Shown: piece by piece, positions 57,420 through 63,051 of the stretch
Numbering within the stretch: position 1 is the first letter of the stretch
Layout of the letters: every line of letters begins with the position of its first letter
Source: a virus
Lineage: Duplodnaviria; Caudoviricetes
IMG/VR virus record: IMGVR_UViG_3300037461_000646
Span: 1-64,000 of that record
DNA length: 64,000 bases
Strand: one strand, 5' to 3'
Notes under the pieces: model-generated
What the model saw: only the letters and a program-made list of their open reading frames with translations
The model's database searches: none
What the model was told of the DNA's origin: nothing
Made by a program: the position numbers and the translations under genes

Positions 57420-58046
57420 TTATGCCGTTGTCGTTGTGGTGGTGGTGGTCCAGGTAGTGCCGCCAGTATCCCACAGCATACGACCATAAGGCATATTATC
57501 CCAAACTGCATTGCCGCCAGAAACTTCACTGTCGGCCCGTTTCGCCTCAAGGCGAATCGCAACCGCAGCCGGTTCTTCAGCCGCAAACTCCATTTCGATT
57601 GCAGCCGCCGCATTCGCACGGGGAAAGATGATGCCCATCACATTCGTGCCATCCGGAAAGGTATAAATCGCCTCAACGCGAATGGCAGTCGGTGCCGCGA
57701 TCACGCCCAGAGGTATCGACCCCACATGTGCCGCAGAGAACGTCGCAGGGCTTAGACCACGAGCGATAGCCACGTTCTTCGGGGTAAGCTCTTTAAAAGC
57801 ACACTCCAAAGCCGCAGCTTCACGCAGGGGGTAAATGGCATCCTCCAACAGAGGGAAGCCAGATTCCAGCCGGTAGTACTCGACGTTGCCAGAAAACTTG
57901 GTATTCGCCAAAGCACCAAGGCTGTCAGCAGCTTGAAGCCGGGGTACAGTCGAACCAATGTAGGTAGCAGCTAACCCCACACGAATCTGCGCCAGACCCA
58001 ATGCTACTGTGGTGGTATCTTTTGTTACCGGTCCAGTACGTGCCAT
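57420..58046 (-). CDS. Major tail (tube) protein with poly-Thr tail
   Basis: Position upstream of the chaperone; beta-rich; ends TTWTTTTTTTTA. Confidence 0.75.
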   Translation of the reverse strand: MARTGPVTKDTTTVALGLAQIRVGLAATYIGSTVPRLQAADSLGALANTKFSGNVEYYRLESGFPLLEDAIYPLREAAALECAFKELTPKNVAIARGLSPATFSAAHVGSIPLGVIAAPTAIRVEAIYTFPDGTNVMGIIFPRANAAAAIEMEFAAEEPAAVAIRLEAKRADSEVSGGNAVWDNMPYGRMLWDTGGTTWTTTTTTTTA

Positions 58047-58062
58047 ATTGTCTCACCTCCTT

Positions 58063-58377
58063 TCATTTTTGAATCACTGCAACAGTGTCAGAAGATTCAA
58101 CCTGTGGGTTGATTTCACTATCGGTTTGCACCCGATTTGCTGGAAAGTAGTTTAACACATTCCAATGGTTTGGGTAATCTCTTCGGCATTTTCGCCGCAA
58201 ACACCGCATCAGAATAGAACCGTGTATTTTCATTTCAACCGGGGTGAACATAGTACGGTCATTGGTTTTGCCAAATATGAACCGCCAACATCCATTTGGT
58301 AAACGCTCAATGAGCTTCTTGCCACACTTCTCGCACCGAAAGAACGATCTACGAATTTCATTGGGCTGTTGTGACAT
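58063..58377 (-). CDS. Zinc-finger protein (Com-like)
   Basis: RCEKCGKKL...MRCLRRKC. Confidence 0.65.
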   Translation of the reverse strand: MSQQPNEIRRSFFRCEKCGKKLIERLPNGCWRFIFGKTNDRTMFTPVEMKIHGSILMRCLRRKCRRDYPNHWNVLNYFPANRVQTDSEINPQVESSDTVAVIQK

Positions 58378-58392
58378 GATTGAGTATCCCCC

Positions 58393-58881
58393 TTAGATTT
58401 TCATTGCCACTTTCAGAATGACCGTCAGCACCTTGAATTTAGTTTCATCGGGGGCAATCATGTCGCCAGAGGGCAGAATATCCCAAACAAGCAACTTGCC
58501 CAAAAGAACCCAAGCACCCGAATAATTGCTTTGGTAAAAATCAATTCTTTTCAAACCATCGTTCATGCTGGCATCGACCAAATAGCCCATTACTTTATCC
58601 CGCAATTGAGAAAGCTTGTAGCCCTCGCTGTCTCTGCGGGTGCAGCAATAAACGTCGATGATGATGTCTGACATGGTATCTAAAACGATGGGGCCGAAAA
58701 CAATGCTGCACCACTTGTCCACCTCTTTGCCCTGTATGTTGGGGGAGCTTAGAGCCTTATCGAAAGTAACAGGCACACCCTCTGCCGTGACAAGAGCATC
58801 AACGAAGAACTTCTTGATGCTGTCTCTTAGATTCGACTCTCTGGCTGATGGGTCAAGTGACATATTTTTTATTTTCCTCAT
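58393..58881 (-). CDS. Tail terminator-like protein
   Basis: Size and position in the head-tail module. Confidence 0.55.
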   Translation of the reverse strand: MRKIKNMSLDPSARESNLRDSIKKFFVDALVTAEGVPVTFDKALSSPNIQGKEVDKWCSIVFGPIVLDTMSDIIIDVYCCTRRDSEGYKLSQLRDKVMGYLVDASMNDGLKRIDFYQSNYSGAWVLLGKLLVWDILPSGDMIAPDETKFKVLTVILKVAMKI

Positions 58882-59065
58882 AAAGCTGGTCGAGTGTCCT
58901 AAATAAGGTGCCCTTGACGTACTCTACAGCTTCTATTTCTTCTCGGTTCTTGCTGTCAAAGTTCAACTGAGCCTTTTCAAGTGCCTTCAAAATCTTGCCC
59001 ACTTCTTTTAGGCTTAATTCGACGGTCACATAAAAATCTCTGGGGTAAATGTCCACAACTCTCAT
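58853..59065 (-). CDS. Hypothetical protein (70 aa)
   Basis: Coupled ORF. Confidence 0.6.
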   Translation of the reverse strand: MRVVDIYPRDFYVTVELSLKEVGKILKALEKAQLNFDSKNREEIEAVEYVKGTLFRTLDQLYEENKKYVT

Positions 59066-60862: not shown

Positions 60863-61311
60863 GCAGCATCCCCCGGCTCGATGATAACCAAGTTCGTGTC
60901 TGCATAAGTAGTGTCATTGCCAAGGTCATCGTACTGAAACCCGGCTTCAATCTTCGTGCCGAACATCTCGTAGGCTTGAGCACCCGCAAATTCGGCAATG
61001 TTCTCCTCTTTTGCAGATTCAAACTGTTGATCCATGTATTGAATTAACTGCTTGTAATGGTCAAACCTGTGCTGAAGATTGATTTGCTCAAATTTGAACT
61101 TATGAGCCGATTCCGTCCACAAAAAGAAAAACAACCATCGCTTTGATCGTTCCTTCAACCATTGAATCTGAAAGTCAGTCGTGACCGGGCAAACCCAGCC
61201 CGTGTCGCGTTGAGCATTGGCTACGGCATTGTCGTAGTCGTTGCTATCGACTTTGTCCTTCAAGCCTTTAAGCTCTAACGCCAATAGCTCTTTCAGTTCG
61301 TCGGCTGTCAT
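60859..61311 (-). CDS. Head-tail adaptor-like protein
   Basis: Helical 150-aa protein, second gene after the capsid. Confidence 0.55.
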   Translation of the reverse strand: MTADELKELLALELKGLKDKVDSNDYDNAVANAQRDTGWVCPVTTDFQIQWLKERSKRWLFFFLWTESAHKFKFEQINLQHRFDHYKQLIQYMDQQFESAKEENIAEFAGAQAYEMFGTKIEAGFQYDDLGNDTTYADTNLVIIEPGDAA

Positions 61312-61649
61312 TTCTTGCGCTTGCCCCCTTTACGTTGCACCAAAAGCTTTTTCGTCGGCTTTGGGGCAGGTTCAGGTTCCACAGCTTTGGTTACGGTCTG
61401 AGTCTGAGTTTCGATCAACAACTGCTTTGCCCTGAGATCAGGGGTCTTCATTTCGGGCACAGAAACCATGTCGTAAATCTGTTGCTTGGTAAGTTTCTGC
61501 GGCATACCGACAATGTGTACCGTGCCCGTGTTGTGAATGATTTCATCCAAGATTTCTTTTGGAAGGGGCGGCTGCATCACCGCCCCCTCCAAGAAGATTC
61601 TCTTACCAGCTTTAATGGTTTTTAGCATTTTCACGCTTTCGATATACAT
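61308..61649 (-). CDS. Hypothetical protein (113 aa)
   Basis: RBS AAGGAGG; directly after the capsid gene. Confidence 0.65.
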   Translation of the reverse strand: MYIESVKMLKTIKAGKRIFLEGAVMQPPLPKEILDEIIHNTGTVHIVGMPQKLTKQQIYDMVSVPEMKTPDLRAKQLLIETQTQTVTKAVEPEPAPKPTKKLLVQRKGGKRKK

Positions 61650-61688
61650 CTTTCGATTGCCTCCTTTCAGAGTATTGCCACTACCCGA

Positions 61689-61707
61689 ACTACCGTCACG
61701 CGGTAGT
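61689..61707 (-). terminator. Short hairpin downstream of the capsid gene
   Basis: ACTACCG-TCACG-CGGTAGT; no clear U-tract. Confidence 0.3.
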
Positions 61708-61725
61708 GGACGTAGTCGTCGTGCT

Positions 61726-63051
61726 TCAGGCAGTGGTCGTGGTCGTGCTGCTGCTGGAGCTCGACGTTGTGGTGCTGGTTTCGGCCTGATGAGCCGTGGT
61801 CACAACATCAATCGTGTAAATGGCATCACGGTTGAAGAGAATGGGCAAGCCCTTGTCCTGAACGCGAATCCAGGTCACTTCGGGGTCCCACTCGTCGTAG
61901 CTATCGGTGAACTGACCGTAGGTACGATTCAGGCCAAACGGGGCCTGTTTGTACTCGGCAATCGGCTGACCATCCACCTTGGAAGCCATCATGATGAACT
62001 TGTCATCAGGAATAAACGGCTTTGCCTGGGTGACGTAGTCCTCCCCAGCTTTGTAGCTGGTCGTAGTCGGGTAATTGATCTGAACGGTGCCATTCTCGGC
62101 GTTGACGCTGAGAACAACCCGATCTTCGTAGGAGCCAGCAGAGACATCCCAAAAACGAATGGCTGCATCGGCCTCAAAGTCGGAAACATCGTCCAGGCTG
62201 ATCCAGGTGGTCGAACCACCCGTGACCGCACCCGTGAGCCATGCCCGAACCTCGTACATCTCATCGTAAACGATGAAGTTGGGGATATCGAGCAAGGAGC
62301 CAATGACCTTCGGGTTGACTGCAATCAGATTGTGCAGACCACCCGAATACAGGTTGTTTTCACCCACCATGAAATTCTGGCGTTTCAGAATGTCCCGAAT
62401 GGTGGTGTCTGCGGCCAACAGCTTCAGCACATTGCTGTTGAAGAGGGCGTAATCGATGTACCCCCCGCAATCGCGCTGAAGGGCAATCTTGGCATCACGA
62501 ATGTCGCCAAGAATGTCTTTGCTGCCGCCGTTGTTCCAATTGTAGGCAGAAGCCAGAGTGACACGGTGATCACTGGGAATGCCATAATCAACGCTGGCTC
62601 GGTAGCCACCCTTAACATGGTAGCTGAAGCCGTTGTTGCACAGCATCTGAGCGAACATCCATTCTTTGCGGCGCATCGAACGGTTTTTCAGACCCGCAAG
62701 CTCACGGGCCAGTTTCGCTTCTGCACTCTGGTAGACAGCATCGGTGCCCGGTTGACGAAGATTGTTCAGAAACTCCTCATCGAAGGGCATTTTCTCTTTC
62801 CAGTAAGCAGCTTCGGCAACGTGCTGTGCAACCCCATGGGGGGAAGTCACAGGGGCCGGGGTGCCCGGTGCGACGAATGGGGTCATGCCACGACCCCCGC
62901 GCTGGGATTCCCACCGAATAGTGCTGCTCGGAGAAGTAGAAGCCCCGAACAGATTCATGAGAAGCAGATTCGGGGGTGTCATGAACGACTGCATGAACCC
63001 CTGAAGCACCTCAAGTCTCAGAATAGGTATATCAGAAGAACCTCTGGGCAT
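61726..63051 (-). CDS. Major capsid protein (lambda gpE-like) with insertion domain and Ser/Thr tail
   Basis: MTPFVAPG, YWKEK, RRKEWMFAQML..G, VDYGIP..H, DIL.DI, RVQDKGLPIL...DAI; ends ETSTTTSSSSSSTTTTTA. Confidence 0.88.
   Translation of the reverse strand: MPRGSSDIPILRLEVLQGFMQSFMTPPNLLLMNLFGASTSPSSTIRWESQRGGRGMTPFVAPGTPAPVTSPHGVAQHVAEAAYWKEKMPFDEEFLNNLRQPGTDAVYQSAEAKLARELAGLKNRSMRRKEWMFAQMLCNNGFSYHVKGGYRASVDYGIPSDHRVTLASAYNWNNGGSKDILGDIRDAKIALQRDCGGYIDYALFNSNVLKLLAADTTIRDILKRQNFMVGENNLYSGGLHNLIAVNPKVIGSLLDIPNFIVYDEMYEVRAWLTGAVTGGSTTWISLDDVSDFEADAAIRFWDVSAGSYEDRVVLSVNAENGTVQINYPTTTSYKAGEDYVTQAKPFIPDDKFIMMASKVDGQPIAEYKQAPFGLNRTYGQFTDSYDEWDPEVTWIRVQDKGLPILFNRDAIYTIDVVTTAHQAETSTTTSSSSSSTTTTTA

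What the first reader, a model, noticed from the sequence alone, without database searches (positions are those of the whole stretch)
57420..61790. Three core structural proteins carry appended poly-Thr/Ser C-terminal tags
Seen: capsid ends ETSTTTSSSSSSTTTTTA (61726-61780), head closure ends YTTTTTTTTSTTTTTV (60197-60246), tail tube ends TTWTTTTTTTTA (57420-57455). All end in a Thr run plus one small aliphatic residue. Codons are mixed (ACC/ACA/ACG/ACT), which argues for selection on the peptide over simple DNA slippage. Inference: a shared glycosylation tag added to surface-exposed C-termini; on capsid and tube it would be displayed in hundreds of copies.
Basis: partly seen in the sequence, partly recalled or inferred. 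Interest (0 to 1): 0.8.

Follow-up and report, generated by a model that had tools for sequence, protein, structure and literature searches.

The report
Poly-threonine sugar-acceptor tags on phage virion
An uncultured 89-kb phage ends its capsid, neck and tail-tube proteins in threonine-only tails that occur in related and unrelated phages together with one set of sugar-adding enzymes, so the particle is probably coated in sugars, which has been measured so far only in mycobacterial phages.

Summary
Three minus-strand virion genes end in Thr/Ser tails: the major capsid protein, a tandem-barrel neck (stopper-like) protein and the tail tube protein. Chance expects 7e-5 such tails per genome, and 0 of 2000 shuffles gave one.

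The tails are add-ons beyond the fold, because sister phages' orthologues stop exactly at the domain end. Codons are mixed and synonymous change dominates, so selection acts on the peptide.

All 12 large genomes that carry the phage's GT4 have 2-5 tailed virion proteins. Eleven of them also carry its GT2, whose best solved relatives are animal polypeptide GalNAc-transferases. Three sister genomes without these enzymes have no tails.

In a second, unrelated structural module, capsid, adaptor and tube are tagged too, which is convergent.

Caveats:
- No glycan has been measured.
- Outward orientation is inferred.
- Tail-less sisters carry a different sugar cluster.
- Some other phages have poly-Thr ends without this enzyme pair.

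Verdict: a probable virion O-glycosylation system, and a new variant of the mycobacteriophage precedent. This scan has already noted the same theme on this genome (e1-5940882) and on other DNA (Firmicutes phages; e1-5947910).

The parts
61726..63051 (-). Major capsid protein, 441 aa (lambda gpE-type HK97 fold). The C-terminal add-on is residues 417-441 (61729-61803).
   Evidence: Phage_cap_E E 2e-33 and phrog_29 E 6e-49. The Pfam domain ends near residue 416. Tail-less orthologues end at ...YILDVE.
60197..60862 (-). Neck protein, 221 aa, a tandem of two stopper/head-closure-type beta-barrels. The add-on is residues 205-221 (60200-60250).
   Evidence: Model pLDDT 92.8. Residues 1-102 and 97-205 each match neck stopper proteins at Z about 10. 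142 of 150 family representatives end at ...EDTR.
57420..58046 (-). Tail tube protein, 208 aa. The add-on is residues 194-208 (57423-57467).
   Evidence: Top Foldseek hits are siphophage tail tube proteins, prob 1.0. It lies directly upstream of the chaperone and tape-measure genes. All 120 closest homologues are tailed. Four sister orthologues end at ...PLGRIIFG.
38421..39380 (-). GT-A glycosyltransferase, 319 aa, with a GT27 (polypeptide GalNAc-transferase)-like catalytic core and no N-terminal anchor. Candidate initiating enzyme.
   Evidence: Pfam GT2 E 1e-10. Invariant DxH, YGGGENF and HH. The profile's best PDB hit is human ppGalNAc-T10, E 9e-7 over 222 positions.
39392..40237 (-). SAM methyltransferase, 281 aa.
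   Evidence: Methyltransf_11 E 3e-12. Conserved in three tailed genomes of the clade (G001, G003, G005); in the fourth, G004, the contig ends inside the cluster before this gene.
40239..40964 (-). Conserved 241-aa cluster protein of unknown family.
   Evidence: No Pfam or NCBIfam hit. It travels with the cluster in both lineages. Its atlas neighbours are viral, and in one neighbouring cluster 22% of members carry GT2 (a lead only).
40955..41554 (-). Methyltransferase-like protein, 199 aa.
   Evidence: Weak Methyltransf_23/25 hits. Conserved with the cluster.
41541..42674 (-). GT-B (GT1-like) glycosyltransferase, 377 aa.
   Evidence: Glycos_transf_1 E 7.5e-6, borderline. Conserved with the cluster.
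42665..43933 (-). GT4/GT1 glycosyltransferase, 422 aa. The most conserved cluster enzyme.
   Evidence: Weak Glyco_transf_4 and Glycos_transf_1 hits. 40-83% identity in every tailed genome. 57 viral loci encode a relative.
43973..44920 (-). Accessory glycosyltransferase, 315 aa.
   Evidence: Glyco_trans_1_2 E 2e-13. Absent from the four tailed genomes of the same clade; weak relatives (22-28% identity) occur in two second-lineage genomes, G019 and G013. It is not part of the core set that tracks the tails.
44872..45813 (-). Radical SAM/SPASM enzyme, 313 aa. Role unknown.
   Evidence: Radical_SAM E 9e-18 and SPASM E 2e-6. Homologues occur only in tail-less G009 and G010, so it does not track the tails.
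25143..30533 (-). Mucin-like giant protein, 1796 aa. About 1200 residues are 86-96% Ser/Thr, lying between a Gly-rich head and a globular C-terminal region.
   Evidence: Homologues occur only in tailed genomes.
31255..33924 (-). Mucin-like protein, 889 aa. Residues about 100-550 are more than 84% Ser/Thr.
45826..51171 (-). 1781-aa tail protein encoded two genes downstream of the tape measure, with a Ser/Thr tract of about 150 residues near its C-terminus.
   Evidence: Homologues occur only in tailed genomes.

Best explanation
The poly-Thr/Ser C-terminal tails are acceptor tags for a phage-encoded, cytoplasmic O-glycosylation system.

Proposed steps:
1. The late minus-strand block (about 63.8 to 25.1 kb) encodes both the virion proteins and the enzyme cluster. 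This is shown.
2. A soluble GT-A enzyme with a polypeptide-GalNAc-transferase-like core (38421-39380) puts the first sugar on Thr/Ser of the disordered tags. This is inferred from motif and profile similarity.
3. The GT4, the GT1-like enzyme and perhaps the 241-aa protein extend the glycan, and the two methyltransferases O-methylate it. This is inferred by analogy with the glycosyltransferases plus O-methyltransferase of cluster O mycobacteriophages.
4. The same enzymes decorate the mucin-like tracts of the giant tail proteins.

The result would be a glycan brush on capsid, neck, tube and fibres. From my own estimate, that means several hundred copies on the capsid and roughly 350 on the tube, given the 1562-aa tape measure. 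Its purpose is not known; candidates are shielding, hydration or colloidal stability, or adhesion to polysaccharide matrices.
For: Tails are real, non-random and under peptide-level selection:
- 6.6e-5 tails are expected per genome, 0 of 2000 shuffles gave any, and 3 are observed.
- Synonymous against non-synonymous codon differences in the tails are 71/18 (tube), 203/113 (capsid) and 119/80 (neck).
- All 120 closest tube homologues keep a tail of variable length.

Tails are add-ons beyond the fold. Orthologues in sister phages end at the domain boundary.

Co-occurrence inside the lineage:
- The core enzymes at 38421-43933 are conserved in the tailed genomes G001, G003, G004 and G005, except that G004's contig ends before the GT2 and methyltransferase genes.
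- They are absent by BLASTP from tail-less G008-G010.
- Those tail-less genomes and 15 control loci have no tails.

Independent lineage:
- 15 large GT4-bearing records have no close homologue of this capsid; 14 have none and one has a weak 29% match.
- The seven pulled whole that carry a close GT4 (40-55% identity) also carry the GT2 and have 2-5 tailed ORFs each. The eighth, G020, has only a distant GT4 (30%) and no detected GT2, yet 4 tailed ORFs.
- The tailed proteins are tail tube phrog_807, head-tail adaptor phrog_477, capsid-type phrog_1623, and the phrog_290 and phrog_687 tail proteins.
- So capsid, connector and tube were tagged convergently in non-homologous families.

Enzyme chemistry fits peptide Ser/Thr O-glycosylation:
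- The GT2 profile's best PDB hit is human ppGalNAc-T10 (E 9e-7).
- About half of the 17 hits are ppGalNAc-T isoforms.
- The invariant FVDxH aligns to FLDSHCE and YGGGENF aligns to WGGEQYE.
- The protein starts directly with the Rossmann beta-strand, so it has no anchor or signal peptide.

Giant mucin-like proteins are present only in tailed genomes.

[quoted passage not shown] 2023).
Against: - No glycan has been measured; all evidence is comparative.
- Within the capsid lineage the tailed genomes form one clade, so that contrast is a single evolutionary event.
- Tail-less sisters carry a different sugar-modification cluster (a GT1+GT9 fusion, GT2, GT8, rhamnosyl-O-methyltransferase-like enzymes, radical SAM), so the presence of glycosyltransferases alone does not predict tails.
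- Reverse test: 18 other large viral records hit by a Thr6-Ala-stop DNA pattern have no GT4 or GT2 homologue. About ten of them have real ORFs ending that way. Four of those ten show no GT1, GT2 or GT8 Pfam gene, although two of the four are incomplete records.
- Outward orientation of the capsid C-terminus was not modelled.
- The GT4 and GT1-like Pfam scores are weak.
Confidence: 0.72

Rival explanations
1. The tails are unglycosylated hydrophilic, disordered bristles or spacers. In this reading the enzyme cluster acts only on the giant mucin-like fibre proteins, or on a non-virion target such as the host envelope.
For: Poly-Thr ends occur in some phage records with no detectable GT1, GT2 or GT8 gene. 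Tail-less sisters also carry glycosyltransferase clusters, so such clusters can serve other acceptors. Che8's glycosylated proteins have no long Thr tails.
Against: Tails and the GT2/GT4 set co-occur in 12 of 12 genomes and in two unrelated structural modules. The short tails have the same composition as the mucin-like tracts. The enzymes are soluble and encoded in the late virion block.
Confidence: 0.13
2. The tags are glycosylated, but by host enzymes. The phage cluster only remodels or extends the glycan, or does something unrelated.
For: A complete 41-kb provirus has tailed capsid and tube proteins but only a weak candidate enzyme (HPAT-like, E 0.006).
Against: The phage's own GT27-like enzyme is the kind that acts directly on peptide Ser/Thr. 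It is gained together with the tags in independent lineages.
Confidence: 0.07
3. The tags receive another modification, such as phosphorylation, methylation or a radical-SAM cross-link, or they act as an assembly or sorting signal.
For: Methyltransferases and a radical SAM/SPASM enzyme lie in the cluster.
Against: The radical SAM gene does not track the tails; its homologues occur only in tail-less G009 and G010. No kinase was seen. The methyltransferases are small-molecule/sugar types and always accompany the glycosyltransferases. Tube assembly in sister phages needs no tag.
Confidence: 0.05
4. The tails are neutral by-products of replication slippage in ACN repeats.
For: Tail length varies between homologues: the S/T-rich terminal stretch has a median of 16 residues and reaches 26 in the tube family, and is up to about 70-85 residues in some capsids.
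Against: Codons are mixed. Synonymous change dominates. The tails persist down to about 60% identity and are placed convergently on the same three classes of virion protein.
Confidence: 0.01

Closest known systems
Mycobacteriophage virion glycosylation (Che8, cluster O phages such as Corndog; Freeman et al. 2023, cited in PMC11600133 and PMC11256854)
   Same: [quoted passage not shown] Here too there are several glycosyltransferases plus methyltransferases, and the capsid and tube are the candidate acceptors.
   Different: Che8's capsid and tube end in ...NKTGS and ...YSDGS, not in poly-Thr tails. No mycobacteriophage appears among BLAST hits of the GT2 or GT4. Here the initiating enzyme is GT27-like, a neck protein is tagged too, giant mucin-like tail proteins are present, and the cluster sits inside the tail-gene block. 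The host lead is Desulfobacterota-type MAGs, not Actinobacteria.
Animal mucin-type O-glycosylation by polypeptide GalNAc-transferases (CAZy GT27, e.g. human GalNAc-T10, PDB 2D7I)
   Same: The acceptors are disordered Thr/Ser-rich stretches. The phage GT2 shares the DxH metal site and the GGEN-type motif, and its best solved relatives are ppGalNAc-Ts.
   Different: The phage enzyme has 319 residues with no lectin domain and no membrane anchor, so it would act in the bacterial cytoplasm. Similarity is remote (E 9e-7 at profile level), and the donor sugar is unknown.
Serine-rich repeat adhesins of Gram-positive bacteria (GspB/Fap1), glycosylated in the cytoplasm by GtfA/GtfB (GT4). From my own knowledge.
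   Same: Cytoplasmic O-glycosylation of very long Ser/Thr-rich tracts by soluble GT4-type and other glycosyltransferases encoded beside the substrate gene. This is the closest bacterial analogue of the giant mucin-like tail proteins here.
   Different: There is no accessory Sec system. The substrates are virion proteins. Homology of the phage GT4 to GtfA was not detected (one search gave only weak BshA-like hits).
Poly-Thr tails paired with a cryptic GT-A enzyme in Firmicutes phages
   Same: Capsid and tail tube proteins end in poly-Thr tags, and a glycosyltransferase-like gene sits in the head/tail module. I met one such record independently: G042 has a PF05065 capsid and a PF06199 tube, both tailed.
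   Different: A different enzyme (a single GT-A/GT8- or HPAT-like protein), different terminal residues (QA, GG), smaller genomes and no mucin-like giants.

Membership tests
Phage virion O-glycosylation systems (mycobacteriophage type) | Phage-encoded glycosyltransferases, with or without an O-methyltransferase, in a genome whose virion proteins are the acceptors | tested here: met
   GT2, GT4, GT1-like and Glyco_trans_1_2 enzymes plus two methyltransferases lie within the late virion block.
Phage virion O-glycosylation systems (mycobacteriophage type) | Glycan covalently attached to capsid and tail tube subunits | not testable with these tools
   This needs glycoprotein staining or mass spectrometry of virions.
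Phage virion O-glycosylation systems (mycobacteriophage type) | Enzymes homologous to those of Che8 or Corndog | tested here: not met
   tblastn of the GT2 and the GT4 against 50,697 phage records gave no mycobacteriophage hit. This was tested at BLAST sensitivity only.
CAZy GT27 polypeptide GalNAc-transferases | GT-A catalytic domain with a DxH metal-binding motif | tested here: met
   Invariant D107-x-H109 (FVDGHC) aligns to FLDSHCE of GalNAc-T10.
CAZy GT27 polypeptide GalNAc-transferases | Gal/GalNAc-T motif (WGGEN-type) following the catalytic core | tested here: met
   Invariant YGGGENF (205-211) aligns to WGGEQYE.
CAZy GT27 polypeptide GalNAc-transferases | Significant whole-domain sequence similarity | tested here: inconclusive
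   Profile against PDB: E 9e-7 to T10 over 222 positions, other isoforms 5e-4 to 0.3, and heparosan synthase at 3.5e-5 in between. The single sequence gave only E 0.03.
CAZy GT27 polypeptide GalNAc-transferases | C-terminal ricin-type lectin domain and type II membrane anchor | tested here: not met
   The protein has 319 aa, begins at the first Rossmann strand and ends shortly after the catalytic core.
CAZy GT27 polypeptide GalNAc-transferases | Transfers GalNAc from UDP-GalNAc to peptide Ser/Thr | not testable with these tools
   This needs an enzyme assay.
Siphophage tail tube proteins | Tube-protein fold and a gene position upstream of the chaperone and tape measure | tested here: met
   Foldseek prob 1.0 to tube proteins 9n71, 8xkn and 9jgh; gene order.
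Neck stopper/head-closure proteins (SPP1 gp16 type) | Beta-barrel of about 100-120 aa that matches solved neck stoppers | tested here: met
   Both halves match at Z 9.5-10.4 to 8hdr_A, 7z4w_1, 8xow_f and 8zdj_M. The tandem arrangement is unusual.

The most novel reading that the evidence does not exclude
A portable poly-Thr C-terminal 'glyco-tag' has been acquired convergently by non-homologous capsid, connector and tube proteins. A soluble GalNAc-T-like phage enzyme reads it, so environmental phages (host lead: Desulfobacterota) build a mucin-type glycocalyx on their particles in the bacterial cytoplasm. That would be a bacterial-virus counterpart of animal mucin glycosylation, and a ready-made tag-and-enzyme pair for glyco-engineering.
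Probability: 0.5. Interest if true: 0.85.

Novelty: new variant of a known kind. Interest (0 to 1): 0.68.

Why it matters
Virion glycosylation of tailed phages has been demonstrated only for mycobacteriophages. If this reading holds, three things follow.

- Sugar-coated virions would be widespread in uncultured environmental phages. The tube family alone has 910 members, and 57 viral loci carry the GT4.
- They would use a simple, recognisable acceptor tag together with an enzyme related to the animal enzymes that start mucin glycans.
- The open question of what a phage glycan coat is for becomes testable outside the immune-evasion setting.

It would also provide a minimal tag-and-enzyme pair for cytoplasmic O-glycosylation in bacteria. 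For annotation, a C-terminal poly-Thr tail on capsid or tube proteins becomes a cheap marker for candidate glycosylated virions.

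Tried and rejected
- PHROG and Pfam gave nothing for the 221-aa and 208-aa proteins. Structure prediction was needed.
- The Pfam PF13524 scan by genome handle was ambiguous. It turned out to be hitting a different GT1+GT9 fusion gene in the tail-less sisters.
- The simple idea 'tails present if and only if any glycosyltransferase is present' is rejected. Tail-less sisters have their own sugar cluster.
- The idea that the radical SAM enzyme and the Glyco_trans_1_2 enzyme belong to the core tag system is rejected. The first has homologues only in tail-less genomes; the second is missing from the four tailed genomes of the same clade and has only weak relatives in two second-lineage genomes.
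- The idea that poly-Thr ends are exclusive to the GT2/GT4 set is rejected by the reverse DNA-pattern test.
- Sequence search of the capsid and the GT4 against the PDB gave nothing useful.
- Tunturiibacter phage Tunturi_4 was examined as a possible cultured handle. Its distant GT2 relative (21.5% identity) is not accompanied by Thr tails.
- Freeman et al. 2023 (PMC10527164) could not be read. Its content is cited only through papers that summarise it.

Full report
WHAT IS THERE. The window is the first 64 kb of a complete 89,207-bp uncultured virus record with a 127-bp terminal repeat. No cultured phage is close; the best capsid match is 25% identity. On the minus strand a late block runs from about 63.8 kb down to 25.1 kb. 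In order it holds a decoration protein, the capsid, neck genes, the tail tube, the chaperone, a 1562-aa tape measure, tail proteins, an enzyme cluster and giant Ser/Thr-rich proteins. They are the only ORFs in the genome with an S/T-only C-terminus. With S+T at 12.0%, 6.6e-5 such tails are expected per genome and 0 of 2000 shuffles produced one.

IDENTITY OF THE THREE PROTEINS.
- 61726-63051 is a lambda gpE-type major capsid protein (Phage_cap_E E 2e-33; phrog_29 E 6e-49).
- 57420-58046 had no family hit. An AlphaFold model built on 52 homologues (pLDDT 77) matches siphophage tail tube proteins at Foldseek probability 1.0. The gene sits directly upstream of the chaperone and tape measure.
- 60197-60862 folds with pLDDT 92.8 into two beta-barrels. 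Each barrel (residues 1-102 and about 97-205) matches neck stopper/head-closure proteins at Z about 10, including Pam3, SPP1 gp16, lambda and Douge.

This is a neck protein, expected in a few copies per virion, and the tandem arrangement is unusual.

THE TAILS ARE ADD-ONS UNDER SELECTION.
- Among 54 related capsid loci, orthologues at about 58% identity or more carry S/T tails of 15 to about 70-85 residues. Nearly all at 57% or less end at ...YILDV(E/A), the end of the Pfam domain; the one exception is a partial capsid (L056, 56% over the aligned part) that is tailed.
- The neck protein switches in the same loci. 142 of 150 representatives of its wider family end at ...EDTR, and only the eight closest are tailed.
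- All 120 best tube homologues (60% identity or more, out of 910) are tailed. The tube orthologues of four sister genomes (51-57% identity) end at ...PLGRIIFG or similar.
- Thr codons are mixed. Across distinct tailed orthologues, synonymous differences outnumber non-synonymous ones: 71 to 18 in the tube, 203 to 113 in the capsid and 119 to 80 in the neck protein.

This argues against slippage junk and for selection on the peptide.

LINK TO A SPECIFIC ENZYME SET. The window holds the following genes.
- GT2 at 38421-39380.
- Methyltransferase at 39392-40237.
- Conserved 241-aa protein at 40239-40964.
- Methyltransferase-like protein at 40955-41554.
- GT1-like enzyme at 41541-42674.
- GT4 at 42665-43933.
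- Glyco_trans_1_2 enzyme at 43973-44920.
- Radical SAM/SPASM enzyme at 44872-45813.

I pulled eight whole relatives. The block from the GT2 to the GT4 is conserved in the four tailed genomes (42-88% identity). The exception is G004, where the contig ends inside the cluster, so the GT2 and the methyltransferase are not seen there. The block is absent by BLASTP from the tail-less genomes G008-G010. The fourth tail-less genome, G011, has only a 28% GT4-like gene, plus one poly-Thr-tailed ORF and one S/T-rich tail protein. The Glyco_trans_1_2 gene is missing from the four tailed genomes of the same clade. The radical SAM gene has homologues only in tail-less genomes. Neither belongs to the core set.

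AN IMPORTANT NUANCE. The tail-less sisters are not free of glycosyltransferases. Directly after their neck-protein gene they carry another cluster, with a GT1+GT9 fusion of about 690 aa, GT2, GT8, rhamnosyl-O-methyltransferase-like enzymes and radical SAM/SPASM. The whole group therefore seems to modify something with sugars, while the poly-Thr tags go with one particular enzyme set. This parallels Che8, whose glycosylated capsid and tube have no Thr tails.

INDEPENDENT LINEAGES. Because the tailed genomes form one clade, that contrast is a single event. I therefore searched with the GT4.
- 57 viral loci encode a relative. 34 of them have at least one S/T-tailed ORF within 10 kb, against 0 of 15 control loci.
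- Of fifteen large GT4-bearing records, fourteen have no detectable homologue of this capsid and one has only a weak 29% match.
- Eight were pulled whole. This included three that showed no tails near the GT4. Seven carry the GT2 (41-49% identity) and a GT4 at 40-55%, with 2-5 tailed ORFs each. The eighth, G020, has only a 30% GT4 and no GT2 by BLASTP, yet 4 tailed ORFs.
- The tailed proteins there are tail tube phrog_807 (E 1e-26 to 1e-31), head-tail adaptor phrog_477, capsid-type phrog_1623 (E about 1e-105, with the tail appended after profile position 302 of 305), and tail proteins phrog_290 and phrog_687.

Capsid, connector and tube are thus tagged in a second set of non-homologous families. 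That is the strongest evidence that the tag is a portable module read by the shared enzymes.

In all, 12 of 12 genomes with a GT4 at 40% identity or more have tails, and 11 of them have the GT2. Copies binned with Desulfobacterota-type MAGs also have tailed ORFs nearby. This is only a host lead.

ENZYME CHEMISTRY. An alignment of seven GT2 orthologues has invariant FVDxH, YGGGENF and HH. Its profile's best solved relative is human polypeptide GalNAc-transferase 10 (E 9e-7 over 222 positions). About half of the 17 hits are ppGalNAc-T isoforms, and the DxH and GGEN-type motifs align. The phage protein lacks the lectin domain and the membrane anchor. The similarity is remote and the donor sugar is unknown.

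EVIDENCE THAT CUTS THE OTHER WAY. A DNA pattern for Thr6-Ala-stop found more than 118 viral stretches.
- Eighteen large records not reached before have no GT4 or GT2 homologue.
- About ten of them have real ORFs ending in T7-8-A.
- Six of those ten carry other GT1 or GT2 genes. Four show none, and two of the four are incomplete records.
- One of the four is a complete 41-kb low-GC provirus. It has a tailed HK97-type capsid (PF05065) and a tailed tube (PF06199). A 343-aa ORF lies beside the capsid gene and gives only a weak hit to a peptide O-glycosyltransferase family (HPAT, E 0.006).
- Earlier scan notes describe this Firmicutes class as using a cryptic GT-A enzyme. I did not verify that.

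Poly-Thr ends are therefore a wider phenomenon, served by more than one enzyme family or, in some cases, possibly by none.

MECHANISM AND CONFIDENCE. Best reading (0.72): the tails are O-glycosylation acceptor tags, modified in the cytoplasm by the co-encoded enzymes, giving a glycan brush on capsid, neck, tube and mucin-like fibres.
- Shown: the tags, their add-on nature, selection on them, and their co-occurrence and convergence with the enzyme set.
- Inferred: the attachment itself, the order of enzyme action, outward orientation, copy numbers and biological purpose.
- Rivals: unglycosylated bristles (0.13), host-enzyme glycosylation (0.07), another modification or signal (0.05), slippage junk (0.01).

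NOVELTY. Virion glycosylation by phage enzymes is published for mycobacteriophages (PMC11600133, PMC11256854). I found no paper describing poly-Thr tags or a GalNAc-T-like phage enzyme. No cultured phage among 50,697 records carries the GT4. I class this as a new variant of a known kind. The scan itself has met the theme before, on this genome and on other DNA.

Noticed in passing
L084:6162-14867 (G009); L079:17532-19598 with L080:464-3730 (G008); L091:10757-16649 (G011): Tail-less sister phages carry a different sugar-modification cluster inserted directly after the neck-protein gene. It holds a GT1+GT9 (heptosyltransferase-like) fusion of about 690 aa, GT2, GT8, rhamnosyl-O-methyltransferase-like enzymes and radical SAM/SPASM. 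Its acceptors are unknown.
   Followed up: partly
window 25143-30533, 31255-33924, 45826-51171: Giant mucin-like tail proteins with Ser/Thr tracts of about 150 to about 1200 residues, punctuated by STAST(L/I)STT-type units. Homologues occur only in tailed genomes.
   Followed up: partly
window 60197-60862: The neck protein is a tandem duplication of the stopper/head-closure beta-barrel. Both halves match neck proteins that are single-barrel in solved phages.
   Followed up: partly
window 44872-45813: A radical SAM/SPASM enzyme lies inside the glycosylation cluster. Its only homologues among the relatives lie in the tail-less phages' alternative cluster, so its role (sugar or peptide chemistry) is open.
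   Followed up: no
L312:12405-16332 (G042, complete 41-kb provirus, 35% GC): An HK97-type capsid (PF05065) and a Phage_tail_2 tube (PF06199) both end in poly-Thr tails (...TTTTTTTTA, ...TTTTTTQA). The adjacent 343-aa ORF (14341-15369) gives only a weak HPAT-family glycosyltransferase hit (E 0.006).
   Followed up: partly
L172:2525-2947, L172:18858-19463, L173:824-1207 (G014): In this lineage the tails are proline-punctuated repeats (TVAPTTTTTVAPTTTTT), resembling the Pro/Thr linkers of secreted glycoside hydrolases and the PTS domains of mucins.
   Followed up: no
L315:1567-2565 (Tunturiibacter phage Tunturi_4 gp2): The only cultured-phage relative of the GT2 (21.5% identity, with DNH and GGE motifs) sits between the terminase and portal genes, yet its virion proteins have no Thr tails.
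   Followed up: yes
window 61537-63084 (+): A 515-aa open frame lies antisense to the capsid gene. It is rich in Arg, Gly and Leu and is almost certainly spurious, but it outcompetes the capsid in naive longest-ORF gene calling.
   Followed up: no
L175, L177, L178 (MAG contigs): GT4 homologues at 47-61% identity, two of the three with poly-Thr-tailed ORFs nearby, lie on contigs binned with Deltaproteobacteria, Thermodesulfobacteriota and Desulfobacteraceae MAGs. This is a host lead only.
   Followed up: partly
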